NCBI GenBank assembly: GCA_044869265.1
Contig: JBIOXD010000021.1
Coordinates: forward strand, 2,748 to 66,747
Length of the DNA stretch: 64,000 nucleotides
Source of the DNA: Gemmatimonadales bacterium
GTDB lineage: Bacteria > Gemmatimonadota > Gemmatimonadetes > Gemmatimonadales > GWC2-71-9
Direction: 5' to 3'
The notes beneath the pieces were generated by a model. It made no database searches. It saw nothing but the letters and a program-made list of their open reading frames with translations, and was not told the origin of the DNA. A program made the translations under genes and the position numbers. Positions 3,601 to 21,565 of this stretch are shown here, piece after piece. Each line of letters begins with the position of its first letter. The stretch's first letter is position 1.

Positions 3601-4061
3601 CGTGATTCCGGCCCAGGGTCCGCACGATCCAGGCGGGAGATCTCCACCTGATGTTATGGAGCTACGACCATAACAGCGTGGTTCAAGGAAAATTTCGGTG
3701 AAGAACTACCACGTTTGTACCAACGCCGCCGTATGCCACAAAGCAGTTGCGTCCAGAATCTCAACGACATCACCCTCCACTTTCGCCAAAGCGGCACGAG
3801 GGATGGTATACCCCGAGTTCGCGAGAGCCGCGAACACGCGCTCCAGCCCTTCTTCACCGCCCCCTGATGACGGCCTCGAATATTTTTGCGACGCTTGCTG
3901 CGTACAGAGGCCCGAACAGGCCCATGCAGAACTGGACCTTAACCTTGTCCCATCCACGCGTAAGCATTACGCTGGAGCTGTGCCCGCATCTATTCGACCA
4001 AGAGCCCTCGAGCAACCCGAACTCCCTTCGAAGCCGCTTTCTCAAGCCGCCGCAATGCCGT

Positions 4062-5150
4062 TTAGCACGTGGGAGGAGCGTCCTGTCGCTCTAGCTCGAC
4101 ACGATACTGACCGCCTGCCGTTGCTCTGACGGTTACAGTCCCGTCCCACCCCGTGGCGAACACCGCGTCACGCATCGTCACGCGCCGGAAGTCGCGTACG
4201 CCGTCGGCCACGGACACGCTCTTGGGGGTCGCGCGGCGCCGGCGGATCGCCGCGCTCAGCATGTCGACCGCCACCGCTCTCGGATGGCCGAACTGGTAGG
4301 CGTTGAAGAGGCCGGCGCGCCGCGTGCAGCTCCCCATTGAGATGATCGCGATCTCGGGCTGCACCAGCGCTTCTAGCAGCGACCAGGTCGTCCCATTGTG
4401 CGAGCCGTGATGTCCCACGTGATAGACGTCGGCGTCGAGCATCGGCGAGCCAGCGAAGACGGTGACAAGGTTCTCGATCGCCGGAATCTCCAGATCCCCG
4501 GTGAAGAGAAACGAGGCGCGACCCATGTCTACACGGACCACCAGGCTGTGGTTGTTCTTGTCGTGGAAGTCGTTCGCTCGCCACCCAGGGTTCTCTGCTA
4601 GGTCCGCCGAGAGAATCCTGATCTCGGGGTTTGTGCCAGCGCACTCGACGGGATCGATCTCCGGGGTCGTAAGTCCGAAGTCGGCGACAATGTCGTCCCC
4701 ATCGACATCCACGATACGTATGTCGCGGCGCCTAGTTTGGACCTGCTCATTCAGCCATACCAACGGTCGATCTCCGATGTCGTTCTCTCGACCCCGGCCG
4801 CCGTTCTCCACCACGCTCCGGACCCGAAAGGCCTGCACGAGATCCGCTAGTGAGCGGGTATGATCCACGTGGTTGTGAGTAATGATGATGGTGAGGAGCG
4901 TCGAGTCGAGGTCGGTGCGGCGCGCAAAGAACGTGCCGAGGTATGCCACAAGCTGCTCAGAATCCGCGCTCGATTGGCCTCCGACGTCGATAAGCACTGC
5001 GCCGCACGAGAACTCTAGCAAGGTGGCGTCTCCCTGGCCCACATCTATGAAGTGCGCGATCATCACGCTGTCCGGTAAGCCCTGCGTACGTGCAGCTGTC
5101 GTCCAGGCGAGCGAGACGCATAGCAGAATGAACAGTCGGTTCGTGATCAT
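4062..5150 (-). CDS. Secreted metallo-beta-lactamase-fold hydrolase of the ComEC/Rec2 C-terminal-domain type
   Basis: Motifs HFIDVGQGDATLL, ITHNHVDH (HxHxDH) and YHVGHHGSHNGT. Start reassigned to ATG 5150 (GAGG 6 nt upstream), giving MITNRLFILLCVSLAWTTAARTQG as a signal peptide. Confidence 0.8.
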   Translation of the reverse strand: MITNRLFILLCVSLAWTTAARTQGLPDSVMIAHFIDVGQGDATLLEFSCGAVLIDVGGQSSADSEQLVAYLGTFFARRTDLDSTLLTIIITHNHVDHTRSLADLVQAFRVRSVVENGGRGRENDIGDRPLVWLNEQVQTRRRDIRIVDVDGDDIVADFGLTTPEIDPVECAGTNPEIRILSADLAENPGWRANDFHDKNNHSLVVRVDMGRASFLFTGDLEIPAIENLVTVFAGSPMLDADVYHVGHHGSHNGTTWSLLEALVQPEIAIISMGSCTRRAGLFNAYQFGHPRAVAVDMLSAAIRRRRATPKSVSVADGVRDFRRVTMRDAVFATGWDGTVTVRATAGGQYRVELERQDAPPTC

Positions 5151-5655: not shown

Positions 5656-5938
5656 TCGGACCTTCCTCTCCCGCGTGTGCGGGGATGCGCAACCTGTGGT
5701 GGGCTGGCTTGCCAAGAACAACGCTCCCGCACGCTCGACACTTCCCCGCGCGGAGCACGACGGGCGGCTTCCTCACAGAAAGCTGCCGCGGCGATGGAGC
5801 ATGACTGTGGTGGCAATTAGTCGTAGGAACCAGCCTCGAACGTCTTTCAAACTCGGCGGTCTCAGCAAAGTAGAGTCGGGCATAGATAGTCGTTTCCAGC
5901 CACAGATCATATCGCTCTTGGTCAGGCGCTCGCGCCAT
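5642..5938 (-). CDS. Hypothetical 98-aa protein (weak call)
   Basis: Open frame MARAPDQERYDLWLETTIYARLYFAETAEF... with a CRAC pair. The stop overlaps the start of 5158..5655 by 14 nt. Third-position GC is only moderate and no motif was recognised. Confidence 0.25.
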   Translation of the reverse strand: MARAPDQERYDLWLETTIYARLYFAETAEFERRSRLVPTTNCHHSHAPSPRQLSVRKPPVVLRAGKCRACGSVVLGKPAHHRLRIPAHAGEEGPNECP

Positions 5939-6099
5939 ATCTCCGAAAGTCGCGTCTCTTAAGCATTAGTTTAGCGTCGCCTGGGTCGACGGCCTGGACT
6001 CGCTCGGATGGCGAGCTCGAGAACGAGTAAGACTCCATGCTCGCCGTGGAGAAGAGCGTGATCCGCCTCCGGCCCAAGTACTCGATTCGGACCCGGCGA

Positions 6100-6486
6100 C
6101 TACGGGATGCCTTCGTGGTCCCGTACGAGCTTTGGCTCCGCCTCGGCTGCCGGCGGCGATTGCAGCATGTCATCGACGGTCCTCTCTCCCTCTAAAAGTC
6201 TAGGTTCGCTAAGCTTGGCCTCGACGAGGATCGCGCCTCCCGACAATCCCAGCCACGTCACTACTGTCTCGACGGGACCACTGCTGTTCACATAGAACGC
6301 GAGCGGAGCAGCAACCCACAGGGATACGCAGTTGAAGCAGTCCATCAGCCGGCCGAGCAGGTTGCTGCCCGCGAACGTGCGCAAACGCGCTATCAGGTCC
6401 CACGGCCCGCGCTCTGTAGCAAGCAACCGGCTCACTCTCCAGGTCGCGAGTATTGCGAGGACGAAGCGGAACACCACGGAGCCCAC
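6100..6486 (-). CDS. DUF1360-like integral membrane protein
   Basis: LATWRVSRLLATERGPWDLIARLR...LMDCFNCVSLWVAAPLAF resembles the DUF1360 pattern as I remember it (Arg-rich amphipathic helix, then C-x-x-C...W). The GTG start is immediately adjacent to the TGA of the upstream gene. Confidence 0.6.
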   Translation of the reverse strand: MGSVVFRFVLAILATWRVSRLLATERGPWDLIARLRTFAGSNLLGRLMDCFNCVSLWVAAPLAFYVNSSGPVETVVTWLGLSGGAILVEAKLSEPRLLEGERTVDDMLQSPPAAEAEPKLVRDHEGIP

Positions 6487-7095
6487 TCACTTGTTACAAC
6501 AGCCAGCGGCCCACTTGCACCACCAGCGGCAGTCGCACGAGCAGCAACCCGCACACTTCGTCACGCAGCCGCCGCACCTCCCCACGACGCACCAGAAGTA
6601 TGCCGCCCATGTTCCCGAACAGGTGACTAGCGAGGTGAGGCACGTCGTCACACATGACCGCTTCAGGCACGCTACCCAGCAGCTCCACCAGCTCTTGGCC
6701 TTCTTCAAGTTGTTACTCGCGTCGACTGTGTATTCAACCGCCTGCTGGAACTTCCCATTGGGCGCGACGACGTTGAAGTTGTAGGTATCGGTGTGTGTCC
6801 CCGCCCTCACCGTCACGGTCCCGACGGCCGCACGGTCTTTGGAGCCTCCTTTTTGATACGACTGCAAGCGGATCTCAAACGTCGCGGTGCGACCATCATT
6901 GCTGGTGTACTTCTCCGTGACGCCGAAGTACGCGTCTTTACCGGCAGTTACCGGCTTGAACCCTTGTGACGCGAGGTGGGTGGAGAGAGACTTGATTGCT
7001 GGCCGTGCGGCGGCCGCCTTGAAATGCGCGCTAAGGTCGGCGACCTCCGGGATTTTGGTAGCGACCCGTGACACGAAGATCTTGGGGGCGGGCAT
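6487..7095 (-). CDS. Unknown protein: 134-aa Cys-free N-terminal region plus 68-aa C-terminal tail with 16 Cys and 8 Trp
   Basis: Start reassigned to ATG 7095 (GGAGG 5 nt upstream). The tail is SWWSCWVACLKRSCVTTCLTSLVTCSGTWAAYFWCVVGRCGGCVTKCAGCCSCDCRWWCKWAAGCCNK. Third codon positions are GC-rich in this frame. Confidence 0.7.
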   Translation of the reverse strand: MPAPKIFVSRVATKIPEVADLSAHFKAAAARPAIKSLSTHLASQGFKPVTAGKDAYFGVTEKYTSNDGRTATFEIRLQSYQKGGSKDRAAVGTVTVRAGTHTDTYNFNVVAPNGKFQQAVEYTVDASNNLKKAKSWWSCWVACLKRSCVTTCLTSLVTCSGTWAAYFWCVVGRCGGCVTKCAGCCSCDCRWWCKWAAGCCNK

Positions 7096-7194
7096 CGTTC
7101 CTCCGTGCGCTGGTGGTGAAGAAGTCAAAGCCGCGACGACTGGCTCGCAACTTCAATCCTAGGCTCGGGGCGTCTCAACCTCGTCTCCGAGACA

Positions 7195-8214
7195 TCACCT
7201 AGTTGTCTCGCCTCGCGCTCCGATTGTGCCCGAGCCTTGCGCTCCGGTCTTGGACGGCACCGTGAGGAGCTTCACTTGCCTCAGCTCCCTGATTCCACAG
7301 CTCAGCAAGAACTGCGCTGCCTCCAGATTCGATTCCACCTCGCGGAGAGCCGTCTGCATGCGATTCGACGCAGCATCGGCGGGCTTTGCCGCGGGAAACG
7401 CCGGCGCGTCGGTCCGCACAACCAGCCTTCGGAAATGGCGTCCTGCCTTAATGTCCTCGTACAACGCGACGGTCTCGGGCATGGGGGCGATAGTGAGGTT
7501 CTGATCTAGGAGGCGCGCGCACGCGTCATACTGCCGAATGGCCGCCGCCCGGTCCCCGGCGGCGTAGAGGTACGACATCAGGCTGCGATGCGCGCTCTCC
7601 AACAGGGGATGCTGATTCAGAAGCCGCTGGGCGTAGCCGACCGCTGCGTCCCAGTCCCCTCGGTCCTCGTGGTAGCGCATGAGCCATTCGAGCACGAAGC
7701 GATAGAGTGCTTTGTAGTGCTCGCGCTCGCGAAAGCACCATTCCTCGTCCATTCCTTCCAGGAGATTCCCGCGATAGATGTCCTCGGCTTCCTTCAATAG
7801 CTGCACCTGGGCAGGCGTCAGGTCCGGACCAGGCGGGTTCTTGGCTGCGCGGAGTCTTCGCTGGAACTCTTCGACATCGAGCCAGTATTTGCTTGCAGCG
7901 TTAAAGCCCAATCCATCGCTGGTCAGAACCAGATAAGTCCCTCGCCGTGTGCCGACGGGCTCCAGTATGCGGTGCAGCCGCCAGAGATTCATGCGCAGAC
8001 ACTTCCGCCCGTGTCTCTCGGGCTGGTCACTCCAGAAGGTGTTTGTCAGACTCTCTCTGCTATGAAGACGATCGCGATGCAACAAGAGAAAGGCGAAGAG
8101 GGCTCTTGAGTCGTACGTCGGAAACTGCTCCAAGACGCCCGTGCCAAAGCGGACTTCCATCGGACCAAACAGTCGGATCGTCAGCACGGCACTCCTCCTC
8201 TTCGCGCTCCTCAA
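7195..8214 (-). CDS. SARP-family transcriptional regulator (OmpR-type winged helix + BTAD)
   Basis: IRLFGPMEVRF...ALFAFLLLHRDRLHSRESL...LRMNLWRLHRIL is the wHTH region. The BTAD helices are EAEDIYRGNLLEG...EREHYKALY...AHRSLMSYLYAAGDRAAAIRQYDACARLL. Confidence 0.8.
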   Translation of the reverse strand: MRSAKRRSAVLTIRLFGPMEVRFGTGVLEQFPTYDSRALFAFLLLHRDRLHSRESLTNTFWSDQPERHGRKCLRMNLWRLHRILEPVGTRRGTYLVLTSDGLGFNAASKYWLDVEEFQRRLRAAKNPPGPDLTPAQVQLLKEAEDIYRGNLLEGMDEEWCFREREHYKALYRFVLEWLMRYHEDRGDWDAAVGYAQRLLNQHPLLESAHRSLMSYLYAAGDRAAAIRQYDACARLLDQNLTIAPMPETVALYEDIKAGRHFRRLVVRTDAPAFPAAKPADAASNRMQTALREVESNLEAAQFLLSCGIRELRQVKLLTVPSKTGAQGSGTIGARGETTR

Positions 8215-8324: not shown

Positions 8325-9338
8325 CTACTCCGGAATCGCCAGTGTAGCGCCGATGAAGCCGCAGACCAGGGCGACGAGTACCATCGTGCCAGCGGCTTGG
8401 ATCAAACGCGTTGGTGTTATATGGCCGTCCGCCGGACGCCCGGGTCCGATTCTCCAGGACACCCACCACCCCAACGTTGCATCGGCCAGGCCCACCAAGG
8501 CTCCCGCCACGGCTCCTGCCAGCATCGATTCGGCGTATCCGCCAGCCGCGTACCCCACGGCCCCGTAGATCAAAAACGCCCCTGGTGCCAGGAGCGCATA
8601 CCGAAAGCTCAGTTTCTTGGAAGCAACTGCTCCCAGGGAATCGAACGCTAGCACCGTGAGGGTACCCAAAAGCGCTATGAGCAGGACTGGCCCTATTTCC
8701 GACTTGAAGGGCAGCGCAGGCGAGAGGGGACGCCTCTCAGGCCTAACCAGGAGTTCATACCAGGCTTTCACGAAGCCGCGAATGCCGTACTCAGCACCCG
8801 AGGTCCCGATGATCACCTTGCCGCCAACGACCGGAGCCATCGTCTCGGTGAACCCGAATGCCGGATCGCCGACCTTGGTGACCCACTTCTCGTTCCCGGT
8901 CCGCTGGTCGAGCGCGACGAGCTCACCGCCGAGCGTGGCGACGTAGACATTGCCGCCCGCTATCGCCACGCCGCAGTTGTACGGCCCCCAGCCCGCCGGG
9001 CTCACTGACGCATTCTTGTGCTCGTACTGCCACAGCCGCTTCTGGGTCCGCAGATCGAACGCCCGGACGCAGCTGTTCGGGGTCGCCGCCGACGTGATGT
9101 ACATGATCCCGTTGACCACGATCGGAGTGTTCTCGAAGCTGCCAAGCCGCTTGGCCCCGTGCGTAGAGACCGCGCGCAGGACGGGGTTCTTGACGTTGGA
9201 GGTGTTGATCTGCCTCAGGGGGGAGAATCGATTGTTCCAGTAGCTGTGCGCGCACATGAACCAGGTGCCGCTGCTCGCGGCTAGCAGCAGCATCCCTGCG
9301 GCACCGAAACCCTCATTCTTCCCCCACGCCCTGGTCAA
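8325..9338 (-). CDS. Chimeric ORF: N-terminal ~200 aa of a PQQ-dependent dehydrogenase beta-propeller fused to a ~4-TM C-terminal segment. Probably a rearrangement product.
   Basis: The PQQ-ADH-like part is NRFSPLRQINTSNVKN...ENTPIVVNGIMYITS...VRAFDLRTQKRLWQY...GGNVYVATLGGELVALDQRTGNEKW...APVVGGKVIIGTSGAEYGIRGFVKAW. It then switches abruptly to hydrophobic LLIALLGTLTVLAF...GAFLIYGAVGYAAGGY...TMVLVALVCGFIGATLAI. Intact enzymes are several hundred residues longer. Confidence 0.5.
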   Translation of the reverse strand: MTRAWGKNEGFGAAGMLLLAASSGTWFMCAHSYWNNRFSPLRQINTSNVKNPVLRAVSTHGAKRLGSFENTPIVVNGIMYITSAATPNSCVRAFDLRTQKRLWQYEHKNASVSPAGWGPYNCGVAIAGGNVYVATLGGELVALDQRTGNEKWVTKVGDPAFGFTETMAPVVGGKVIIGTSGAEYGIRGFVKAWYELLVRPERRPLSPALPFKSEIGPVLLIALLGTLTVLAFDSLGAVASKKLSFRYALLAPGAFLIYGAVGYAAGGYAESMLAGAVAGALVGLADATLGWWVSWRIGPGRPADGHITPTRLIQAAGTMVLVALVCGFIGATLAIPE

Positions 9339-9852: not shown

Positions 9853-12021
9853 TCACGTGAGCGCCGCGGCGCCCTGCGCCCTGACGGTGGCCATCACGTC
9901 CACCCGGAGCTCCTTGCCTTCGAACAATGACACCATCTGAGCCACGGTCTCCGCGGCGGCCTTCTCGTCCCCAGCCTCCTTCTGGGTCCTGGCCAGCCGA
10001 CAGTACACTTGCGCGAGGGAGATGTTGTCGAGCCCCTCGCCACGCGCGGACGCGGAGATGACCGCGCCCAGGTGCGTCTCGGCGTCGCGCTTTCGCGCCT
10101 TGCGGACTGTGAGTTTGCCGTCGGCCGCGAGGTTCCCAAAGGGGCGCGCCGCGTTGAACCCCAGCGCCAGCCGCGCATACATCGTGAGGGGGTGCGTGGG
10201 AAACTTATCGATCGCCTGTTGCAGCTTGTCGTTGCCGGCCGCGAGGTATGTGCTGTCGGAACCCAGCAAATAGAACAGCGTGCCCTGCTCGTCGCCCATC
10301 AGCAGATCGGCGACATCCTCGTCGCCCTCCGTCCGCGGCGGCCGGACCCGGATCTCTAGCGTGTTCGACACCAGGATTGAGCCGTCCTGGGCGGCGTAGG
10401 CTGCGCGCAGCTGATAGGTGCCCGGTGCGTCGAAGGTGAGCCCCTGCTTACCGTACCCGATGTAGGCGCTGTCGTAGATCGCCGGCTTCGAGGCATCGAG
10501 CCGGGCGGTCTCAGGGAGCATGCACGTATCCATCACCGGGTCGTGGATCACCACTAACCCGCCTGGCTTCCGGATGGCCAGGCGCACGCCGCCCGCGTCG
10601 GGATGCAGGTGGCGCTGGACTTCGCGCCGCTTCGCCCCCTCTAGCGAGAGCTTGAACTCCACGACGACAGGCTCGCCCATCCGGTACGACGGCGCCGAGC
10701 GGAGCTCGAATCGGAGCCCACTGGCGTCCTCGTCCGGGTTGGCGAAGTCATCGCGTTCGAGTGCGGCCCCCGTGCCGAAGGGATTGCCGCCCGGGATCAC
10801 GTTGTCACGGAAGCCGTGGCGGAGGTGAATCGTCTCAAGGTCGTCAAACTGGAAGGGGAAGCCTGCCCAGAACGCCGCCTCTCCCGTCGGGAATCGCCAC
10901 GGGTAGTTCATCCACGAGAAGGACATGAGCCGATTGGGCATCGGTGGCGTCATATACTGCTTGTGGAAGGAATGGAACAGGTTGAAACAGTGCCCCAGCT
11001 CGTGCACGCACGTGAAGAGCTGGTTGCGCAGGGCCTGCGCCGTTATGCCACCGAGCCCCTGGTAGAAGACCGCGCAACCTTGCCGCTGGCACCCCTGCTG
11101 GTCGAACATGATGCCAAGGAGCGTCGGCGCCATTTCGTGCAGTCGGGCGTGGAGGAGCCAAACCTTCCACTGGGGCACGTCGCGCCAGAGGCTGAAGTGG
11201 TTCAGCATGGCGTTGTGCAGCTCAGCGTTGCTCCAGGATGCTCCGGGGGGCGCCGGGACGATGTTCGGCGCACCAGCCGCGCGCATATCCACCCCCGCCT
11301 CGTGGTACGCGGCGAGCACTGAAAGGGTACGCGCCGGGCCGCCAGACGGCAGCGAGCCCGTGTTATAGGAGGTGAATGGGGTGACGCCAGCCTCACAGTC
11401 TTGCTCCAGATCCATGCTGCGGAAGAAGGGGGAGACAAAGGGGCAGGTGTAGGTGGCGCCCGGTTGTCCCGCCGCGTTAAACCAGCGCACCGTCGCGGGC
11501 GGCGGCGACGAGAAGACCGATGCGCGCGGGATCGTGACGCGGACCACGTTGAATGTCGTGCTCCAGGTGGTCTTGGCCGTGCCGGCGATCGTCACAAGCG
11601 TCGGCGTGACCGTAATCGCGATTGCGTTGACAACCCAGGAGCCGAAGTAAGTGACGGTGGCGCCCTGGACCCGCAGGTAGTCGCCGCTGAGCCGCCGCAT
11701 GGGCCGCGCGCCGTCCACATCTACGCGGACCTCGGCCCGCCAAGAGCCGGCCATTCCAGCGTAGCGCCCGTGGACGGCGCGGCGCACGATTGGAACCGGA
11801 ATGGGCGGGGCCGGGATCGGCAGGGGCGGGAGCGCCGCGATGAACTCCTCGACTATCTCGGACGCCGTGGGTTCGACGCCTGGGAGGAAGGTCACTTCTT
11901 CTGTGCCAGGAGGCGGTTCCGCCACGTGCAGGGACTGCGCCACCTCCTCGATGCCGTGTTCGACGAGGGTGCTGGGCCCGCCGCCGGCGACGGGTGGCGC
12001 GGAGGGGTCGGGATTGGCCAT
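9853..12021 (-). CDS. Large metzincin-type zinc metalloprotease-like protein (M43/pappalysin-like motif) with no evident signal peptide
   Basis: CVHELGHCFNLFHSF fits HExxHxxxxxH plus the (S/T)F typical of M43-like metzincins. Start reassigned to ATG 12021 (AAGGAGG 5 nt upstream). The N-terminus MANPDPSAPPVAGGGPS is Pro-rich and non-hydrophobic. Confidence 0.65.
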   Translation of the reverse strand: MANPDPSAPPVAGGGPSTLVEHGIEEVAQSLHVAEPPPGTEEVTFLPGVEPTASEIVEEFIAALPPLPIPAPPIPVPIVRRAVHGRYAGMAGSWRAEVRVDVDGARPMRRLSGDYLRVQGATVTYFGSWVVNAIAITVTPTLVTIAGTAKTTWSTTFNVVRVTIPRASVFSSPPPATVRWFNAAGQPGATYTCPFVSPFFRSMDLEQDCEAGVTPFTSYNTGSLPSGGPARTLSVLAAYHEAGVDMRAAGAPNIVPAPPGASWSNAELHNAMLNHFSLWRDVPQWKVWLLHARLHEMAPTLLGIMFDQQGCQRQGCAVFYQGLGGITAQALRNQLFTCVHELGHCFNLFHSFHKQYMTPPMPNRLMSFSWMNYPWRFPTGEAAFWAGFPFQFDDLETIHLRHGFRDNVIPGGNPFGTGAALERDDFANPDEDASGLRFELRSAPSYRMGEPVVVEFKLSLEGAKRREVQRHLHPDAGGVRLAIRKPGGLVVIHDPVMDTCMLPETARLDASKPAIYDSAYIGYGKQGLTFDAPGTYQLRAAYAAQDGSILVSNTLEIRVRPPRTEGDEDVADLLMGDEQGTLFYLLGSDSTYLAAGNDKLQQAIDKFPTHPLTMYARLALGFNAARPFGNLAADGKLTVRKARKRDAETHLGAVISASARGEGLDNISLAQVYCRLARTQKEAGDEKAAAETVAQMVSLFEGKELRVDVMATVRAQGAAALT

Positions 12022-12153
12022 GGGGCCTCCTTCGCTCGAACGCCAAAGGACCCGACATAGGTCCCCGAGTGCTCCCTCATTGGAGCCCACGTGGGTCGGG
12101 CGCGGGGCGTGAGCGAGAGGCAAAACGTACACGCCTATCAACGCGCCGCGCGG

Positions 12154-13444: not shown

Positions 13445-16400
13445 GTGATCCACCATTTCTCGCTGCACTGTCTCGGTGGTCCCGCCCTGTTCACCGCTGC
13501 CGGCGAACAGGTTCGTTTTCGTACGCGCAAGCATTTCGCCCTTCTGATTCGGCTCGCGCTCGACGCCGGCAAGCACTTCACCCGCGACTACCTCGCTGAT
13601 CTTCTGTGGCCTGACGTGGCGCCCAAATTTGCCAACCATTCGCTCGCGCAGGGCTTGTCGGTCATCAAGGCCAAGATCGCGCGAGAGGCCGTCGTGATTG
13701 AACGCGCGAGGGTTGGACTTGCCGCGGGGTGGATCGATGTGGATGCGCTGCACTTGAGTGATGGGGCCGTGAGGATTGACGGTCCATTCCTGGACAGCTT
13801 CGACATCCCCACTGCGCGGCCGTTTGAGGAATGGAAGGATGAGCACCGTGCGCGGCTGGTTCCGCAGATGCGCGATTGTCTGGTACGACTGATGGACGCC
13901 GCTCGTCGTATCGGCGATTTCGCGACCGTCGAACGGCACGCCACGAAGCTGCAGGAGCTCGATCCACTCTCGGAGGAAGGGATCCGGGGCGTGATGGAGG
14001 CGCGCGCGTGGGCGAGCGATCGCAGCAGCGCGCTGAAGGCGTTCGCGCGCTATGAGACCCGGCTGGCGGAGGAGCTGGGAGCCAAGCCTGGGGCTGACCT
14101 CGTCCGGATGGCTGACCTGTTGCGCGACGGTCGTCGCGGGCCCCGGCCGGCAGTGGCCGGATACCCTCCGCCGCGCGTCGATCGCCGGTTCGAGCCGGAG
14201 ACACTGATCGGGCGGGAGCGCGAGTTCAGTGTGCTGTACGATGCGTGGCTCGCGGCCAGGCGGAAGAATCCAAGGATCGTCGTCGTGACGAGCGATCCGG
14301 GCGTTGGCAAGACGACGCTGGTGAATGCGTTTGCTTCGACGTGTCAGATGGATGGTGCAGTCGTTGCCCGCGCGCAGGCCTACGATGCCGAGCGCGAGCT
14401 ACCGTTTGCGGTGCTTGGAGAGTTGGTGAAGCAGTTGGCGATTCAGCGGGCGATTGGGAGTGCAGATCCGGAAGCATTGAGTGAGTTGACCCGGATTAGC
14501 GGGGAAATTCTGAGGCAATTCCCAGGCGTTCCGAAGCCCGTTGAATGGTCTCCTGAGCTGATGCCGTTACGCCTAGCCGATGCATTCCTCAAAACGCTTC
14601 TGGCGGCCGCTATTGATAGCCCAGTGATGCTAGTAATCGATGACATTCATGCCGCTGATAATGCGAGTACCGCCATACTGCACGCAGTGGCGCGAAAGCT
14701 CGTCGACGCACGAGTACTCGTCATCTTGGCTGGTCGCATCGGCGAACTGCGGCTCACGTCCGCACCCGAGGCTCTAACGTCAGACGAGTCACTCTCTGGC
14801 CTATTTTGTCTTGAACTTGATGTGCTGTCCAATGAGTCATCAGAGTTACTTGTGAAAGGGCTAGCAATTGAATCGGGAAAGATAGACCCTCCCCTTGACC
14901 GAGTACTGCGCGCCAGTGCAGGCAATCCGCTTGCATTGGAGTTGCTCACTAGGGAGTGGATAAGTCGTGGGTCAACCTCTTTGCTCAGAGATCTCGAAGC
15001 GCTGAACACACAGCCAGCGGTGACCCTTGGCATTCCGCGCGCGATTGGAAGAATCTTTGAAAGACAGTGTCGTCGGCTCGACGGGAAGACTCGAACGGTG
15101 CTCGATACCGCGGCGATATTGGGGAGGCGGCTGAGTGATTGTGGCTTGTATGCGGCTAGCGGTATAACCCCGGGTTACGCCGCAGAGGCGTTATCGCGTT
15201 TAGTGGACGACGGAATCCTACGCGAGGTGCGTGGCGACTTGGAGTTTCGCAATGAGTTGATCCGCGCCCAAGCATACTACTCCGTAGCCGGTCCCGTGCG
15301 CCGGGACCTTCATGGACGAGTTGCGGATCTCTTATCGCAACGGGGGAAGGAGACCCCCCCGAACCTCGAGATTGGCTGGCATTACATCCGGGCCGGGCTG
15401 CCACAATCTGCAGCCGCCTTTGCCCTTGACGGTGCCCAAGAGGCTCTTGCAAACGGCGCCCCGGCCGAGGCTCAGCAGATCCTGGAGACACTTCTCTCGT
15501 TCGAGCACGCTGAGGATGTCAGTAAAAGAATGCAGCTGCTCCTGGCAAAGGCCCTTCTAGAAAGATCTGAAGCGGCGAAAGCCATGCCGCTTCTGGAGAC
15601 TCTATCACAGCGCGCATCTCTAAGTCCCCGCGAACTCGCCGAGACGACGAGACTTTTTAGCAACGCAGAATTCTTGTTGGCGAAGTCACCCAAGAATCTT
15701 AGAGTAGCGGCAGCCAAGAGGGCCGTGGAGGCAGCAGAGAATACAGGCGAAACGGAGCTGGTACTTAAGGCGCTGTTGGAGTTTGCCCGAACCTGCAAGA
15801 ATCTCGGCGATGACATAGGAATGCGTCAAGTCCGTCATCGGACCGCTGAGATCATCGATTCCGGTGAGCACACGGCGTCCGCGTATCTGACGATCGCGTA
15901 CTGCGACTATTACACCTACGAAACCCATTCCGCGCTTGATGCATTGGAGAAAGCTGCACGCTTAAACGAAAAGGATCTTGCTCAGCTATCGTTCGCCTAC
16001 GGCGGCATGGGTGTTTGCCACCACCTGCTCTGTGATTTTCCCAACGCGCTCACTCATCTTCACAAGAGCTTGGAACTTGCGGAGCGAATTGGGGACGATT
16101 CAAGGGTGTCTCGAATCCTTTCCAACCTGACGACTACAAGTACCACGCTTGGTCGCTACGAAGAAGCAATCAAACTTGGGCGCCGAAGTGTCGAATTAGG
16201 GAAGCGAAGCATAAGCCAACCGGAGCTCCTTACCGCATATACCAACCTTGGCGATGCTTACTTCTTGATTGGTGATCGCGAGCGGGCAGCAGAATGTTTG
16301 GAGGACGCCAAGGAATGGATCGCAACCCACGACGATTGGCACATGACAGTAGTGTTTCTTTTTGAGAATGCCGTCCGAACACTGGCCACTGGAAACGTCG

Positions 16401-16735
16401 CCATGGCACTGCGTACTCAAAAAGAGATTGAGACGCTGACTGGACGCGGAAAACGCCTTCACACGCATGGAGGCATCGCGGCTAAGCTCGAGGTTCTACA
16501 AACCTTCCATGAGAGTGGAGCGACGGCGGCCATGGTCTTAGCGCGAGAGCGAAAAAATTTCTTCAAGAGTCGTGTGCCGCTTTTCTATCTCGACGCCTTG
16601 GCGGCATGCGCATGGGCAGAGAGACTGGGCACGGGGACATACTCATGCGAAACCACCGAAGAACTCAAGGTTTTCGAAACGTGGGGCGCGGTTGGCAAGC
16701 GCGCGTTGCTCCAGGCACAAGGTTTCATCACCTAA
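13445..16735 (+). CDS. Large SARP/AfsR-like STAND regulator: winged helix + BTAD + P-loop NTPase + TPR-like repeats
   Basis: 1096 aa. The N-terminus is HCLGGPALFTAAGEQVRFRTRKHFALLIRLAL. The BTAD region is ATKLQELDPLSEEGIRGVMEARAW...ALKAFARYETRLAEELG. Walker A is VVVTSDPGVGKTTL and Walker B is VMLVIDDIHAAD. A long helical-repeat C-terminus follows. Confidence 0.85.
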   Translation: MIHHFSLHCLGGPALFTAAGEQVRFRTRKHFALLIRLALDAGKHFTRDYLADLLWPDVAPKFANHSLAQGLSVIKAKIAREAVVIERARVGLAAGWIDVDALHLSDGAVRIDGPFLDSFDIPTARPFEEWKDEHRARLVPQMRDCLVRLMDAARRIGDFATVERHATKLQELDPLSEEGIRGVMEARAWASDRSSALKAFARYETRLAEELGAKPGADLVRMADLLRDGRRGPRPAVAGYPPPRVDRRFEPETLIGREREFSVLYDAWLAARRKNPRIVVVTSDPGVGKTTLVNAFASTCQMDGAVVARAQAYDAERELPFAVLGELVKQLAIQRAIGSADPEALSELTRISGEILRQFPGVPKPVEWSPELMPLRLADAFLKTLLAAAIDSPVMLVIDDIHAADNASTAILHAVARKLVDARVLVILAGRIGELRLTSAPEALTSDESLSGLFCLELDVLSNESSELLVKGLAIESGKIDPPLDRVLRASAGNPLALELLTREWISRGSTSLLRDLEALNTQPAVTLGIPRAIGRIFERQCRRLDGKTRTVLDTAAILGRRLSDCGLYAASGITPGYAAEALSRLVDDGILREVRGDLEFRNELIRAQAYYSVAGPVRRDLHGRVADLLSQRGKETPPNLEIGWHYIRAGLPQSAAAFALDGAQEALANGAPAEAQQILETLLSFEHAEDVSKRMQLLLAKALLERSEAAKAMPLLETLSQRASLSPRELAETTRLFSNAEFLLAKSPKNLRVAAAKRAVEAAENTGETELVLKALLEFARTCKNLGDDIGMRQVRHRTAEIIDSGEHTASAYLTIAYCDYYTYETHSALDALEKAARLNEKDLAQLSFAYGGMGVCHHLLCDFPNALTHLHKSLELAERIGDDSRVSRILSNLTTTSTTLGRYEEAIKLGRRSVELGKRSISQPELLTAYTNLGDAYFLIGDRERAAECLEDAKEWIATHDDWHMTVVFLFENAVRTLATGNVAMALRTQKEIETLTGRGKRLHTHGGIAAKLEVLQTFHESGATAAMVLARERKNFFKSRVPLFYLDALAACAWAERLGTGTYSCETTEELKVFETWGAVGKRALLQAQGFIT

Positions 16736-19133: not shown

Positions 19134-19856
19134 CTAACGGCGGGCGTCGACCCAGCGGTTCGTCGCGTCCAACACCGCGAGCACCGCGCTGCGCTCGGGC
19201 GCTTCTCTGATTTCGCACGTTCCGGTGAGAAGCTGAGCTTCGCGGCCCCCGAGTCCGTGCACAGCGACGAGGACGAACTTGCGATCGAAGGCGCCGATCA
19301 AAGTGACGCCCTCGAGTGCCAATGAATTATCGGGCAGGAGGTCGTCGAGACACGTCGTCGCCGCGCGCGCCGCCGCCTCCACCCGATTGCGCAACGTATC
19401 CGTGGCGACCTCCTCGGCGTGCGCCTCCTTCTCGCCGAATCCGAGCTTCACGCGCACCAGCACACGCTGCTGACGCTCCGCCGGCCGCACCTCGAGAGTC
19501 TTGAACACCACCACGCGGTGCTTCGAGCGCTCGCTGATTGCTTCTTCCTGCAACGCCTCGATCGGCCGTACGTCCGCCGTCTGCGCGACGCTGATCTTGC
19601 GATGATCGATTTTGAAACCGAGCTGCGCCATCAACGCCGACTCGATGTTGCGCACCACCTGCTTGGGCTGGACACCGGCGCGCGTGAGCACGTGCACTTC
19701 GCTCACCTCACCGAGCGGCGTCACTACCACCCGCGCCGACAGCACTCCCGTCAGCGTGGTGATGAGATTCTCGACCCGCTTCATTCCCCACGGATCGGGT
19801 TGGCCCGGCGCGCCCGGCGGGCCCAAGGGCAGCGGCTCCTGTGGATTGGATGTCAC
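19134..19856 (-). CDS. Unknown 240-aa protein translationally coupled to the GGDEF gene
   Basis: The GTG start overlaps the upstream TGA (GTGA at 19853..19856). GC-rich third codon positions. No motif recognised. Confidence 0.55.
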   Translation of the reverse strand: MTSNPQEPLPLGPPGAPGQPDPWGMKRVENLITTLTGVLSARVVVTPLGEVSEVHVLTRAGVQPKQVVRNIESALMAQLGFKIDHRKISVAQTADVRPIEALQEEAISERSKHRVVVFKTLEVRPAERQQRVLVRVKLGFGEKEAHAEEVATDTLRNRVEAAARAATTCLDDLLPDNSLALEGVTLIGAFDRKFVLVAVHGLGGREAQLLTGTCEIREAPERSAVLAVLDATNRWVDARR

Positions 19857-21565
19857 GTCGCAGATTTCTCCTCTCCTGACATGGCAACCCGGTTTCGGCC
19901 GCCGGCCTTCGCGCGATATAGCGCGCGATCGGCCGCGACCAGCACGTCCTCATCCCGCTTCTCTGGACCGTACTCGGCCACTCCAACGCTCGCCGTTACG
20001 AACCCGCTTGGATAACCCAGCCCTACGCCCTGCTGCTCGACCGCGAGGCGCATCTTCTCGGCGACGACGCGCGCGCCGTCCACGCCGGTCCCCACCAGGA
20101 TTATCACAAATTCGTCCCCGCCGTATCGTCCCGCAACGTCGGTCAGGCGAATGTGTTTGTCACACTCGCGCGCCGTCGCCTTGAGCAGCGCGTTCCCCGC
20201 CTCGTGCCCATAGCCGTCGTTCACCCGCTTGAAATTGTCGAGATCGAGGAACAGTACCGCGAACCGGTCTCCCGTACGGTGGCACCGCGCGACTTCGTTC
20301 GCTAGACGGTCGCGCAACACGCGGAACGACGCAAGCCCCGTGAGCGCGTCGATCGCCGCCTGCTGCTGCGCCAGCTCGGCCTGGCGCTCGAGGTAGCGCG
20401 GACAGGACTTCAGGGTCGTCCGACCCTTCGCCGCCGCCACGGCGAACTCCTGGCAGGTCTTGTAGCCGCACGCCCCCGAATCCCACGGCCGGCCGTTGGG
20501 AGCGAGCCCGATTTGCACCAGGATCGACTCCACCGCCTCGACTGTCGGGCCCACGCCGTTCATTTCGACCTCGAATGCCGCCCCGACCCGGATCTCGACC
20601 CCTTCCTTGAGCACGGGGGCGGCAGCCCGTGGCGGCTCGGTGGCCCCCACGATCGCCCGACGCCGGAACAGCTCCTCCTTGGGGCCTAGCAGGGGGTGGT
20701 CCAGGCAGCCCTCGCACGGCAGGATGTCGATGAAGCCGAGGTCGATTCGGTCCGTGCCGACCGCCCGGGCGATCCCCTCGAGCGCCGCCAGCCCCCGGAC
20801 CTTGCGGAACCGGCGGGAGGCGTGCCGCTCCTCTTTCAACAATTCGAGCGGGAGCCCCCCGGCCGTGCTCCAGAAGCGGCGTCGCTCTTCGGGAATGCGG
20901 CTGAAGAAGAGGGGCTGATCCTGAACCCGTACCCCCCTTTTCCTTAGTAACGATTCGAGCTCGGCGAGCGTGATCGCAGCATCGACGTCCTCCCCACCCT
21001 CGGTGAGGCACACCCCCGCGTACACGACCGGCGTATCCTCGCCGTAGAGCGCTTTGAGATACCGGGCCTCCGCCGCGATCGGCGTGGACACAGGGGCGAG
21101 GTGCGGGATCAGCTCGGGGTACTGGTTGCGGATCGTTTCGACGATGACGGGACACGTACTCCGGATTACCGTCCCGCGCTCCCCCCACCCCTCCTCGGCC
21201 CAGAGGTCCAGGTACTCCTTGGCCACCAGCTCGTCCCCCAGCACGCCGCGGTGCACGACGGAGAAGCCGGCGGCGTAGCAGGCGTTAACGACCTGCTCCG
21301 GCGTGGTCGGATAGAAGTAGGCGGCCGATTCGACTGACAGAATGAGCACGGCTTTGCGGCTCTGCGCGAGATCAAGCGCGCGGGTCGAGTCGCCGACGGC
21401 AATGATGGCTTCGTGGGGACACGCGGGGACGCAGAGGCCGACGCGGGTACAGGCCTCCGCGACAATCCAGACTTTCTGATCTTCGACCGCTACGGCGTCC
21501 GAGGGGCAGACTCGCACGCAGGCCAAGCATGCGACGCACAACTCGGGGTCGATTTTGTAGTCCAC
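19853..21565 (-). CDS. Fe-S / [FeFe]-hydrogenase-like sensory domain protein fused to a GGDEF diguanylate cyclase
   Basis: Two ferredoxin-type motifs (CVACLACVRVCP, CTRVGLCVPACP). Hydrogenase-large-subunit-like region with degenerate H-cluster motifs (RSTCPV, DILPCEGCLDH). Extra Cys motif SGACGYKTCQEF...LKSCP. C-terminal GGDEF (RYGGDEFVIIL). Confidence 0.75.
   Translation of the reverse strand: MDYKIDPELCVACLACVRVCPSDAVAVEDQKVWIVAEACTRVGLCVPACPHEAIIAVGDSTRALDLAQSRKAVLILSVESAAYFYPTTPEQVVNACYAAGFSVVHRGVLGDELVAKEYLDLWAEEGWGERGTVIRSTCPVIVETIRNQYPELIPHLAPVSTPIAAEARYLKALYGEDTPVVYAGVCLTEGGEDVDAAITLAELESLLRKRGVRVQDQPLFFSRIPEERRRFWSTAGGLPLELLKEERHASRRFRKVRGLAALEGIARAVGTDRIDLGFIDILPCEGCLDHPLLGPKEELFRRRAIVGATEPPRAAAPVLKEGVEIRVGAAFEVEMNGVGPTVEAVESILVQIGLAPNGRPWDSGACGYKTCQEFAVAAAKGRTTLKSCPRYLERQAELAQQQAAIDALTGLASFRVLRDRLANEVARCHRTGDRFAVLFLDLDNFKRVNDGYGHEAGNALLKATARECDKHIRLTDVAGRYGGDEFVIILVGTGVDGARVVAEKMRLAVEQQGVGLGYPSGFVTASVGVAEYGPEKRDEDVLVAADRALYRAKAGGRNRVAMSGEEKSAT

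What the first reader, a model, noticed from the sequence alone, without database searches (positions are those of the whole stretch)
6100..7095. Protein with a 16-Cys/8-Trp C-terminal tail, translationally coupled to a DUF1360-like membrane protein and preceded by a SARP regulator
ORF 6487..7095 (ATG with GGAGG 5 nt upstream) has a 134-aa N-terminal region with no Cys, no Trp and no signal peptide. This is followed by SWWSCWVACLKRSCVTTCLTSLVTCSGTWAAYFWCVVGRCGGCVTKCAGCCSCDCRWWCKWAAGCCNK, which by my count has 16 Cys and 8 Trp in 68 residues. Its TGA is directly followed by the GTG of a DUF1360-like membrane protein, and a SARP-family regulator sits immediately upstream on the same strand. SARPs are classically pathway-specific activators of secondary-metabolite clusters in actinomycetes. 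The architecture (a large N-terminal domain plus a small, hydrophobic, Cys-dense C-terminal module) recalls the halocin C8 precursor, where the C-terminal Cys-rich peptide is released and the N-terminal part acts as immunity. That is analogy only, and I cannot show homology. Alternatives are a metal- or Fe-S-binding tail or a disulfide-knotted membrane-active module. I do not know a characterised family with this tail.
Basis: partly seen in the sequence, partly recalled or inferred. Interest (0 to 1): 0.85.

Follow-up and report, generated by a model that had tools for sequence, protein, structure and literature searches.

The report
Undescribed disulfide-ladder protein with helper genes
The gene is real and founds an undescribed protein family, found in many bacterial phyla and some methanogens, whose very cysteine- and tryptophan-rich tail is probably a disulfide-stapled helical hairpin working outside the cell; copies without an export signal, like this one, carry dedicated cysteine-motif helper genes of unknown function.

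Summary
ORF 6487..7095 (minus strand) encodes 202 aa: 134 aa with no Cys or Trp, then 68 aa with 16 Cys and 8 Trp. A DUF1360 gene abuts it and a SARP/BTAD regulator precedes it.

It has no Pfam, NCBIfam or PDB sequence match, and the confident AlphaFold model (pLDDT 90.5) has no Foldseek match. It belongs to a real family of about 190 clusters in at least ten bacterial phyla and in methanogens. The tail is the conserved part (64% identity, against 34% for the N-domain).

Cys presence and absence covary in nested pairs: 139-185, 143-181, 148-177, 152-174 and 189-199. This points to a disulfide ladder between antiparallel helices, not a RiPP core, and favours disulfides over metal binding.

All 13 signal-peptide members surveyed have no helper gene. 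Of 38 signal-less members, 36 have Cys-motif helper genes immediately downstream. Here these are DUF1360 (DCFxC) plus an overlooked overlapping 83-aa M-x-C-C protein at 5922..6173. This two-gene cassette also follows unrelated signal-less Cys/Trp-rich proteins elsewhere.

A conserved SARP-box-like repeat lies upstream. Halocin C8 homology is not supported and remains only an analogy. Function is inferred: probably an extracytoplasmic, membrane- or envelope-targeting protein.

The parts
7195..8214 (-). SARP-type regulator (winged-helix DNA-binding part plus BTAD domain), 339 aa counted from the first possible start codon
   Evidence: Pfam BTAD E 7.9e-25 and a weak Trans_reg_C hit (E 8e-4). Partial NCBIfam AfsR/SARP hits. 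The same BTAD-then-target order is seen in L029 and L096.
7171..7209 (-). SARP-box-like direct repeats: GAGACA (7204-7209), GAGACG (7182-7187) and GAGACG (7171-7176), spaced 22 and 11 nt apart
   Evidence: Read from the sequence. GAGACRN5GAGACR occurs once in the 64-kb window, against 0.07 expected by chance. The two proximal repeats and their 11-nt spacing are conserved in L096.
7156..7161 (-). -10-like hexamer TAGGAT, 9 nt downstream of the last repeat
   Evidence: Sequence and alignment with L096, which has TAGCAT at the same distance. The generic sigma-70 scan found nothing here, so this is an inference only.
7100..7104 (-). Shine-Dalgarno sequence GGAGG, 4 nt before the ATG
   Evidence: Sequence.
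6694..7095 (-). N-terminal alpha/beta domain of the target protein (residues 1-134): no Cys, no Trp, no signal peptide
   Evidence: In the AF2 model it forms eight strands plus two helices at pLDDT 91-98. Mean pairwise identity in the family is 34%.
6490..6693 (-). C-terminal Cys/Trp-rich domain (residues 135-202): kinked antiparallel helices with an inferred disulfide ladder, net charge +6
   Evidence: 16 Cys and 8 Trp. Helices 136-147, 150-158, 163-174, 176-185 and 193-196. Covarying Cys pairs 139-185, 143-181, 148-177, 152-174 and 189-199. Family identity 64%. Cationic in 93% of members.
6100..6486 (-). DUF1360-type small membrane protein with an invariant D-C-F-x-C-x-S-x-W motif and a disordered acidic C-terminal tail. 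Its start abuts the target's TGA; a second GTG lies at 6477.
   Evidence: Pfam PF07098. 93 homologues. Invariant residues in alignment A2. Helices in a low-confidence AF2 model.
5922..6173 (-). 83-aa protein starting MTCCNRRRQ, overlapping the 3' end of the DUF1360 gene by 74 nt. It is the third conserved gene of the module.
   Evidence: Conserved downstream of DUF1360 in L001, L009, L012 and L031 and in L097-L101. It scores E 5.7e-31 against the family HMM. No Pfam match.

Best explanation
Shown or strongly inferred: ORF 6487..7095(-) encodes a member of an undescribed protein family scattered across at least ten bacterial phyla and methanogenic archaea. An N-terminal alpha/beta domain is predicted to pack into one unit with a cationic, Trp-rich C-terminal mini-domain. 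That mini-domain is two kinked antiparallel helices held by a ladder of nested disulfides: 139-185, 143-181, 148-177 and 152-174, then probably 159-169, 189-199 and two more. Such a domain folds in an oxidising compartment, so the family is basically extracytoplasmic. About a third of complete members carry Sec-type signal peptides, one has a Tat-like signal, and a few are fused to PAN or beta-propeller repeat modules.

Inferred: signal-less members such as this one depend on a dedicated set of Cys-motif helper genes placed immediately downstream. Here the set is a DUF1360 membrane protein (DCFxC) plus an overlapping M-x-C-C small protein. With the target they form a three-gene unit driven from a SARP-dependent promoter. 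The helpers most likely do the job that the signal peptide and general Dsb machinery do elsewhere: bring the protein to or across the membrane and get its 14-16 cysteines oxidised.

More speculative: the mature product acts on the membrane or envelope of other cells, like a bacteriocin, with the N-domain serving as carrier or pro-domain.
For: - Family and spread: 43 close homologues; 192 clusters at 50% identity; 17 genome loci from Armatimonadota, Planctomycetota, Actinomycetota (including Streptomyces and Rubrobacter), Chloroflexota, Bacteroidota, Ignavibacteriales, Acidobacteriota, Omnitrophota, a betaproteobacterium, Methanothrix and Methanosarcinaceae.
- Fold: pLDDT 90.5 and pTM 0.86 as one unit, with no PDB or BFVD match.
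- Disulfides: on 175 unique tails, Cys presence/absence covaries in nested pairs. Counts are both present / both absent / mismatched: 139-185 is 69/103/3 (p 3e-45); 143-181 is 103/70/2 (p 6e-47); 148-177 is 155/16/4; 152-174 is 163/10/2; 189-199 is 164/9/2. The residue numbers of the four ladder pairs sum to 324-326, as expected for antiparallel helices.
- Even Cys counts: 114 of 120 signal-less tails have an even number of Cys, and 101 of them have exactly 14.
- Extracytoplasmic setting: 57 of 151 complete members have signal-peptide-like N-termini and P0046 has an RRTFIKR Tat-like motif. Fusions to PAN and to DUF346 propeller repeats occur.
- Signal peptide versus helper genes (with the window added by hand): signal peptide and no helper 13, signal peptide with helper 0, no signal peptide with helper 36 (type B 31; type A 4 plus the window), no signal peptide and no helper 2.
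- Cassette portability: DUF1360 plus the M-x-C-C protein also follows unrelated signal-less Cys/Trp-rich proteins of 705-805 aa and occurs in a phage contig. DUF1360 keeps 13 invariant residues across these different partners, which fits shared machinery better than a co-evolving immunity protein.
- Membrane-active hint: the tail is cationic in 93% of members and carries conserved motifs such as C-[RK]-W-W-C-[RK]-W.
- SARP box.
Against: - No experiment, and no homology to any protein of known function, supports any of this.
- I could not read model coordinates, so S-S distances were not checked. Pairwise covariation is also compatible with two-coordinate metal-thiolate sites.
- The window protein has no export signal, and no known translocase lies nearby. 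How a signal-less protein would leave the cytoplasm is unknown.
- DUF1360 topology is unresolved, because its AF2 model is poor (pLDDT 63).
- Two signal-less loci (L033, L034) have no helper gene.
- The two helper sets, types A and B, show no detectable homology to each other.
- Signal peptides were called with my own hydrophobicity heuristic, not with SignalP.
- High conservation of the tail is unusual for a diversifying toxin.
- Signal-peptide forms sit in unrelated contexts with no obvious immunity gene.
- Antagonistic activity rests only on composition, the patchy distribution, the tandem duplicated pairs in L014 and mobile-element neighbours in Streptomyces.
Confidence: 0.4

Rival explanations
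1. Colicin-like toxin-immunity-release operon. The signal-less protein is a cytoplasmically made toxin. The DUF1360 membrane protein (or the type-B partner) is its immunity protein, and the small M-x-C-C protein helps release it by lysis or leakage. Signal-peptide forms need no partner because they never fold inside the producer.
For: - The gene order, toxin then small membrane protein then small protein, with tight coupling and overlap, resembles bacteriocin operons.
- In the Rubrobacter locus L014 the target and its partner are duplicated together as diverged pairs, at 49% and 46% identity.
- The distribution is patchy and the Streptomyces loci sit next to mobile elements.
- The tail is cationic and Trp-rich.
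Against: - The DUF1360 partner is highly conserved, with 13 invariant residues and 45% mean column identity, even though it sits next to unrelated proteins of 202 to 805 aa. Immunity proteins normally co-diversify with their toxin.
- The invariant Cys motifs in all helper proteins are not explained by this model.
- Signal-peptide forms would still need protection from outside, and no conserved neighbour exists.
Confidence: 0.2
2. Metal-thiolate protein. The Cys-lined helices bind Cu(I), Zn or another thiophilic metal, as in copper-storage proteins or metallothioneins. DUF1360 (CxxC at a membrane helix) is a small metal transporter, and the M-x-C-C protein is a metallochaperone that loads the cytoplasmic form.
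For: - Cys residues sit at i/i+3-4 spacing on helices.
- All helper proteins carry CxxC or CC motifs.
- The window protein has no export signal.
- Pairwise Cys covariation between neighbouring helices could reflect two-coordinate metal sites.
- Small 2-3-helix membrane proteins with Cys pairs that carry metals are known (MerT, MerF; from memory).
Against: - About a third of the family is Sec-exported, so it folds in the oxidising envelope of aerobes, where 14 free thiols would be oxidised.
- Members are fused to PAN and propeller modules typical of extracellular proteins.
- One rung swaps position by exactly one helical turn on both helices (139-185 versus 143-181, almost mutually exclusive). 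That is what a structural staple does.
- Six conserved Trp residues and a +4 mean charge are atypical for metallothioneins and copper-storage proteins.
- There is no match to any metal-binding family.
- No metal-resistance genes are nearby.
Confidence: 0.15
3. Structural or adhesive envelope protein with no role in antagonism. This would be a disulfide-cross-linked surface, sheath, coat or matrix component, or a ligand-binding module, and the helper genes would anchor or assemble it at the membrane.
For: - Strong conservation of the tail fits a structural or binding role better than an arms-race toxin.
- Fusions to PAN and propeller modules also occur in adhesins.
- Signal-peptide forms occur in ordinary chromosomal contexts.
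- Phage contigs place DUF1360 next to structural-looking genes.
Against: - The distribution is very patchy: 17 loci among about 185,000 species genomes.
- The protein is small and single-domain, with no repeats and no anchoring motif.
- Tandem diverged pairs and mobile-element neighbours fit accessory or conflict genes better.
Confidence: 0.15
4. RiPP or halocin-C8-type precursor. The N-terminal part is a leader or immunity part, and the Cys-rich tail is cleaved off and enzymatically modified into a peptide antibiotic under SARP control.
For: - The architecture resembles ProC8, and the tail (68 aa) is close in size to mature halocin C8 (76 aa; bioRxiv 10.64898/2026.07.27.741052).
- Some members have long Gly-rich linkers between the two halves (P0124, P0129, P0176), which could be protease-accessible.
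- A SARP lies upstream.
Against: - No member hits TIGR04449.
- No maturase, protease or ABC transporter is conserved nearby. The MNIO gene in L009 lies 2.8 kb away on the other strand and appears only in that locus.
- The tail is more conserved than the N-part, and it is confidently predicted to be folded and docked on the N-domain. That is the reverse of leader/core behaviour.
- Cys residues pair with Cys, not with Ser or Thr.
Confidence: 0.05

Closest known systems
Halocin C8 precursor ProC8 (HalI immunity part plus HalC8 peptide; TIGR04449)
   Same: A larger N-terminal part is followed by a hydrophobic, Cys-dense C-terminal module of about 70 aa. The family occurs in both archaea and bacteria, and a regulator gene sits upstream.
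   Different: There is no sequence homology: no member hits TIGR04449. The window protein has no Tat signal, there are no ABC transporter neighbours, and the tail has 14-16 Cys against 10. The two halves are predicted to fold as one unit, and cleavage has not been shown.
Plant alpha-hairpinins (CX3C...CX3C helix-loop-helix antimicrobial peptides; PMC11591084)
   Same: Antiparallel helical hairpin stapled by nested disulfides (outer Cys with outer, inner with inner), with CX3C spacing on each helix. The peptides are cationic and antimicrobial.
   Different: Alpha-hairpinins have two rungs. The inferred ladder here has four to five rungs, plus a further Cys/Trp-rich C-terminal segment. This protein is prokaryotic, the hairpin is attached to a 134-aa domain, and no homology is detectable.
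Glycocins such as sublancin 168 (from memory)
   Same: Bacterial helical-hairpin bacteriocins with two nested disulfides, whose gene clusters encode dedicated thiol-disulfide oxidoreductases, including the membrane protein BdbB. This is a precedent for a dedicated membrane Cys-motif helper.
   Different: Glycocins are about 40-aa peptides with a leader, an S-glycosyltransferase and an ABC transporter. None of these is conserved here, and DUF1360 is not a DsbB/BdbB homologue.
Twin CX3C / CX9C proteins (small Tims, CHCH domain, Mdm35; from memory)
   Same: Helix-helix hairpins held by parallel rungs of disulfides, which need a dedicated oxidation relay (Mia40/Erv1) in place of a classical signal peptide.
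   Different: These are eukaryotic mitochondrial proteins with two rungs. The Foldseek hits to Ups1/Mdm35 complexes were insignificant (E 0.36 or worse, TM about 0.1).
Copper storage proteins Csp1/Csp3 and metallothioneins (from memory)
   Same: Helices lined with many Cys. Exported (Csp1) and cytosolic (Csp3) versions of one fold both exist.
   Different: Csp proteins are four-helix bundles with no Trp enrichment and use Tat rather than Sec export. There is no sequence or structure match here, and the rung-swap covariation fits disulfides better.
DUF1360 (Pfam PF07098), for the partner gene
   Same: The partner is a member: its score is above the gathering threshold, and 93 close homologues mostly carry the same Pfam tag.
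   Different: The family has no assigned function; only two papers in the searchable library mention it, both in passing. Its pairing with an M-x-C-C small protein and with Cys/Trp-rich upstream genes is not described in the literature I could search.

Membership tests
Halocin C8 family (TIGR04449 halocin_C8_dom) | Sequence match of the C-terminal peptide to the halocin C8 domain model | tested here: not met
   NCBIfam scan of the window protein and of all 43 members of A1 at E up to 10: no hit.
Halocin C8 family (TIGR04449 halocin_C8_dom) | Tat signal peptide on the precursor | tested here: not met
   The window protein starts MPAPKIFVSRV with no hydrophobic stretch. Only P0046 has an RRTFIKR-type motif.
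Halocin C8 family (TIGR04449 halocin_C8_dom) | Proteolytic release of the C-terminal peptide; N-terminal part acts as immunity protein | not testable with these tools
   Needs mass spectrometry and activity assays. The AF2 model shows the two halves as one compact unit, which neither proves nor excludes cleavage.
RiPP precursor | Conserved modifying enzyme(s) encoded next to the precursor | tested here: not met
   Neighbourhoods of more than 50 loci. Only small Cys-motif proteins are conserved, and none has a Pfam match to a known maturase.
RiPP precursor | Conserved leader with a variable, unstructured core | tested here: not met
   The tail is 64% identical across the family against 34% for the N-part. 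The tail is predicted helical at pLDDT 86-94 up to about residue 180, falling to 55-80 over the last 20 residues.
SARP-controlled gene set | Adjacent regulator with winged-helix and BTAD domains | tested here: met
   The same arrangement is seen in L029 and L096, and BTAD genes lie nearby in L022, L026 and L083.
SARP-controlled gene set | Direct repeats at 11-nt phasing just upstream of the -10 region of the target promoter (feature recalled from memory) | tested here: met
   GAGAC[AG] occurs three times, spaced 22 and 11 nt apart, 9 nt before TAGGAT, and this is conserved in L096. The pattern is unique in the window, against 0.07 expected by chance. Binding itself was not tested.
SARP-controlled gene set | Secondary-metabolite biosynthetic enzymes in the regulated cluster | tested here: not met
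   Flanking genes are an MBL-fold protein, M16 peptidases, a PQQ-like fragment and an unassigned 762-aa protein. None is conserved in related loci.
DUF1360 (PF07098), partner gene 6100..6486 | Score above the Pfam gathering threshold, including the CxxC-containing helix | tested here: met
   25.1 bits against a 21-bit cut-off; residues 42-89 match model positions 51-99. D-C-x-x-C-x-S-x-W is invariant in A2.
Nested-disulfide helical hairpin (alpha-hairpinin-like architecture; structural class, not homology) | Helix-loop-helix with Cys pairs connected outer-to-outer and inner-to-inner | tested here: met
   Helices 136-158 and 163-185. The covarying pairs 139-185, 143-181, 148-177 and 152-174 have residue numbers summing to 324-326. 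The chemical bonds themselves are not shown.
Metallothionein / copper-storage / Fe-S proteins | Match to a known metal-binding family, or Cys loss in sets of three or four ligands | tested here: inconclusive
   No family match. Cys are lost and gained strictly in pairs and Cys counts are even. This favours disulfides but does not exclude two-coordinate metal sites.

The most novel reading that the evidence does not exclude
DUF1360 plus the overlapping M-x-C-C small protein is a previously unrecognised, portable two-gene machine, found in bacteria and phages. It delivers signal-less, Cys/Trp-rich proteins to or across the cytoplasmic membrane and oxidises them (or anchors them through its cysteines), so it stands in functionally for the Sec signal peptide and Dsb. 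Its 202-aa client here founds a new class of disulfide-ladder antimicrobial proteins shared between Bacteria and Archaea.
Probability: 0.2. Interest if true: 0.85.

Novelty: new variant of a known kind. Interest (0 to 1): 0.65.

Why it matters
If the reading holds, three things follow.

1. It adds a widespread protein family that is missing from Pfam, NCBIfam and the PDB. The family has an unusual architecture: four or five disulfide rungs between two helices, six conserved Trp residues, and a confidently predicted fold with no Foldseek match in PDB or BFVD. The domain is compact, probably very stable and cationic, which makes it a candidate antimicrobial or scaffold.

2. It gives DUF1360 its first functional context. 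DUF1360 is an orphan Pfam family also present in phages. Here it appears as part of a two-gene cassette, with an unannotated overlapping M-x-C-C protein, attached to signal-less Cys/Trp-rich proteins.

3. The clean split between signal-peptide forms and helper-gene forms is a natural experiment. It makes a concrete question testable: how do bacteria export or oxidise a disulfide-rich protein that has no signal peptide? The test needs only a three-gene operon and its own SARP switch.

Tried and rejected
Family and structure searches
- Pfam and NCBIfam scans of both halves and of all neighbours gave nothing for the target.
- A PDB sequence-profile search gave 0 hits at E up to 10.
- Foldseek of the confident model against PDB and BFVD gave no hit at E <= 0.001, with best TM about 0.25.

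Interpretations rejected
- Halocin C8 homology.
- RiPP precursor. No maturase is conserved, and the tail is more conserved than the N-part.
- Read-through or selenocysteine fusion. The in-frame TGA between the target and DUF1360 (window 6487..6489, then GTG 6486) is not conserved: the two genes are out of frame or spaced apart in L001, L009 and L096 (coordinates). I treat it as simple stop-start coupling.
- Common origin of the two helper sets. hhalign of type-A helpers against type-B helpers gave probability below 1%. The only resemblance is a weak D..I.R...G..[DE]CxxC stretch.

Searches that led nowhere
- The AF2 model of the DUF1360 partner was too poor for a fold search (pLDDT 63, pTM 0.34), so the last Foldseek job was not used.
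- No homologue of the target occurs in viral contigs.
- Generic sigma-70 and terminator scans found nothing useful.
- Literature searches for DUF1360/PF07098 and for Cys/Trp-rich bacteriocins found no description of this family.

- Model coordinates are not readable in the sandbox, so S-S distances could not be measured.
Full report
**1. Observation**

All features lie on the minus strand. ORF 6487..7095 (ATG, with GGAGG 4 nt upstream) encodes 202 aa. Residues 1-134 contain no Cys and no Trp. Residues 135-202 are the quoted 68-aa string, with 16 Cys and 8 Trp.

The TGA is followed directly by the GTG of ORF 6100..6486, in the same frame. That ORF matches Pfam DUF1360 above threshold. ORF 7195..8214 is a BTAD/SARP-type regulator.

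The ORF is a real gene:
- It has 43 close homologues and 192 clusters at 50% identity.
- Homologues occur in low-GC genomes where the antisense ORF is not conserved.
- Homologues begin at the same MPxPK.
- AlphaFold2 on the family alignment gives pLDDT 90.5 and pTM 0.86.

**2. No known family**

The target has no Pfam or NCBIfam match, either alone or across all 43 aligned members. This includes the halocin C8 domain model TIGR04449. A PDB sequence profile finds nothing at E up to 10. Foldseek of the confident model against PDB and BFVD gives no hit at E <= 0.001, with TM at most about 0.25. Full-text searches found no description of the family.

**3. Anatomy of the protein**

The model is a single compact unit. 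It has eight strands and two helices in residues 1-134. The tail then forms short helices at 136-147, 150-158, 163-174, 176-185 and 193-196.

The tail is the conserved part. Mean pairwise identity is 64% (55% without the Cys columns), against 34% for the N-domain. Six Trp positions (136, 137, 163, 191, 192, 195) are each Trp in 74-82% of tails. The tail is cationic in 93% of 177 members, with a mean charge of +4 and +6 in the window protein.

On 175 unique tails, the presence and absence of Cys covaries in pairs:

| Pair | Both present | Both absent | Mismatched | p |
|---|---|---|---|---|
| 139-185 | 69 | 103 | 3 | 3e-45 |
| 143-181 | 103 | 70 | 2 | 6e-47 |
| 148-177 | 155 | 16 | 4 | 9e-19 |
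| 152-174 | 163 | 10 | 2 | 1e-14 |
| 189-199 | 164 | 9 | 2 | 2e-13 |

The residue numbers of the first four pairs sum to 324-326. They are therefore rungs between two antiparallel helices, as the model's secondary structure suggests.

Pairs 139-185 and 143-181 are almost mutually exclusive alternatives, one helical turn apart. The window protein is one of only 4-5 tails in the set that carry both, which is why it has 16 Cys where most members have 14.

Cys counts are even in 114 of 120 signal-less tails. I read this as a disulfide ladder:
- Four rungs are shown by covariation.
- 159-169 is inferred by extending the register.
- 189-199 is shown by covariation.
- Two more bonds among 184, 187, 193 and 200 are unassigned.

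I could not read the model coordinates, so bond geometry is unchecked. Two-coordinate metal sites remain a formal alternative.

**4. Where the protein works**

Of 151 complete family members, 57 have a signal-peptide-like N-terminus by my hydrophobicity heuristic. One of the ambiguous cases (P0046) has an RRTFIKR Tat-like motif. Members are fused to a PAN domain (P0114), to DUF346 beta-propeller repeats (P0094), or to further Cys-rich extensions. These point to an extracytoplasmic protein, which fits a disulfide-rich domain.

**5. The helper genes**

I clustered neighbourhoods with my own ORF calling, BLAST and HMMs. I used loci from the genome scan, the metagenome scan and exact-protein look-ups.

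Non-redundant loci with a complete gene and at least 500 nt downstream split as follows:

| N-terminus | Helper genes | Loci |
|---|---|---|
| No signal peptide | Type B | 31 |
| No signal peptide | Type A | 5 (4 counted plus the window) |
| Signal peptide | None | 13 |
| Signal peptide | Any | 0 |
| No signal peptide | None | 2 (L033, L034; a separate subclade) |

L096 is a further type-A locus, found later through its DUF1360 gene.

Type A occurs in the window, L001 (Planctomycetota), L009, L012 (Armatimonadota), L031 and L096. The order is target, then DUF1360, then an overlapping protein of about 80 aa that begins M-x-C-C followed by basic residues.

Type B occurs in Actinomycetota, Chloroflexota and others. 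The order is target, then a protein of about 125 aa ending ...E-C-x-x-C-x-x-R-[RK]-x-x-L-N-R-x-x-V-W-G-W-W. A helical protein of about 160 aa is often present as well.

Types A and B show no detectable homology to each other. In the Rubrobacter locus L014, the target and its partner are duplicated together as diverged pairs, at 49% and 46% identity.

**6. The cassette is portable**

The DUF1360 partner has 93 close homologues, far more than there are type-A targets. Their contexts are:
- L096 repeats the window's arrangement: BTAD, then target, then DUF1360.
- In L097, L098 (a Longimicrobium MAG), L099 and L100, the same DUF1360 and M-x-C-C pair sits beside unrelated proteins of 705-805 aa. 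It lies directly downstream in L097, L098 and L100; in L099 an M-x-C-C gene comes between the large protein and DUF1360. These proteins are signal-less and rich in Cys and Trp. Examples are 39 Cys and 20 Trp in one, and 21 Cys and 34 Trp in another, with runs such as AWWWWWS.
- A phage contig (L101) carries both cassette genes. In another (L105), the small-protein motif is fused to the C-terminus of a large Trp-rich protein that precedes DUF1360.

Across these different partners, DUF1360 keeps 13 invariant residues: E22, G24, P25, R33, L44, D46, C47, C50, S52, W54, A56, W75 and S79. That looks like shared machinery or an enzyme rather than a co-evolving immunity protein.

Its AF2 model is poor (pLDDT 63). 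It shows five helices and a disordered acidic tail. Topology is unresolved.

**7. Regulation**

Three copies of GAGAC[AG] lie between the SARP stop codon region and the target: GAGACA at 7204-7209, GAGACG at 7182-7187 and GAGACG at 7171-7176. They are spaced 22 and 11 nt apart. A 9-nt gap and then TAGGAT (7156-7161) follow.

L096 conserves the two proximal repeats, the 11-nt spacing, the 9-nt gap and a TAnnnT hexamer. The repeat pattern is unique in the window, against 0.07 expected by chance. From memory, this is the layout known for SARP-dependent promoters.

SARP adjacency is not a family trait, however. It is seen in the window (and L029), L096, L022, L026 and L083 only. No biosynthetic genes are conserved, so this is not a secondary-metabolite cluster.

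**8. Interpretation**

*Shown:*
- An undescribed, widely scattered family.
- A conserved tail with paired cysteines.
- The split between signal-peptide forms and helper-gene forms.
- A portable cassette of DUF1360 plus an M-x-C-C protein.
- A SARP-box-like element upstream.

*Inferred, with moderate confidence:*
- The tail is a disulfide-stapled helical hairpin that functions outside the cytoplasm.
- The helpers replace what the signal peptide and Dsb do for the other members.

*Speculative:*
- The product is a membrane- or envelope-targeting antagonistic protein. This rests on its cationic, Trp-rich composition, the patchy distribution across domains of life, the tandem diverged pairs, and transposase, methylase and phage-type neighbours in Streptomyces.

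The rivals are given with probabilities in their own section: helpers as immunity and release proteins, a metal-thiolate protein, a structural envelope protein, and a RiPP or halocin-type precursor.

**9. Comparison with the known, and novelty**

In logic, the protein most resembles disulfide-rich precursor bacteriocins (halocin C8, glycocins). In architecture, it most resembles nested-disulfide helical hairpins (plant alpha-hairpinins, PMC11591084; twin CX3C proteins). It is not a member of any of these, because the defining sequence matches were tested and failed.

I rate it a new variant of a known kind, namely a secreted disulfide-rich protein with dedicated accessory genes. There is a minority reading, at about 0.2, in which the DUF1360/M-x-C-C cassette is a categorically new delivery or oxidation device.

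Noticed in passing
window 5922..6173 (-): A conserved 83-aa ORF (MTCCNRRRQ...) overlaps the 3' end of the DUF1360 gene by 74 nt. It is absent from the searched protein database for this contig. Homologues always overlap or abut DUF1360 genes.
   Followed up: yes
window 19853..21565 (-): A 570-aa protein combines 4Fe-4S ferredoxin motifs, an [FeFe]-hydrogenase large-subunit C-terminal domain and a GGDEF diguanylate cyclase domain. It may be a hydrogenase-like sensor coupled to c-di-GMP synthesis.
   Followed up: no
window 9853..12141 (-): A 762-aa ORF carries an HExxH-type motif (VHELGHCFNLFH) but has no Pfam match. It may be an unclassified metalloprotease.
   Followed up: no
window 8325..9338 (-): The N-terminal 180 aa of this ORF match PQQ-type beta-propeller repeats, and its C-terminal part is hydrophobic and unrelated. 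It looks like a truncated or frame-shifted gene, or a mis-called ORF.
   Followed up: no
window 13445..16735 (+): A second, large BTAD-AAA-TPR (AfsR-like) regulator lies 6 kb from the target gene.
   Followed up: no
window 6487..6489 / 6486: The target and the DUF1360 gene are in the same frame, separated by a single TGA. This is not conserved in L001, L009 or L096, so read-through or selenocysteine is unlikely.
   Followed up: yes
L100 1307..3493; L097 1032..3449: Large signal-less proteins lie upstream of the same DUF1360 cassette and have extreme Trp and Cys content (34 Trp and 21 Cys; 20 Trp and 39 Cys). They contain runs such as DAWWWWWS and WCCGWWPWWWWRL and have no Pfam match.
   Followed up: partly
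L105 1324..3951 and 4020..4355; L101 4989..6027 (viral contigs): Phage contigs carry DUF1360 relatives. In L105 the preceding 875-aa Trp-rich protein ends with the small-protein motif (YTGMKTGARYRF...). In L101 an MSCCGDRRR small protein follows 0.5 kb downstream.
   Followed up: partly
L009 1448..3142: An MNIO (MbnB_TglH_ChrH, PF05114) gene with small flanking ORFs lies 2.8 kb upstream of the homologue, on the other strand. It is seen only in this locus and is probably a separate RiPP cluster.
   Followed up: no
L014 394..2637: A Rubrobacter MAG carries two tandem copies of the target-plus-partner pair, diverged to 49% and 46% identity.
   Followed up: yes
L026 7809..8537 and flanks; L024 flanks: In Streptomyces the homologue has lower third-position GC than its neighbours and sits beside a DDE transposase, a C-5 DNA methylase and a phage zinc-binding-domain protein. 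This suggests horizontal acquisition.
   Followed up: partly
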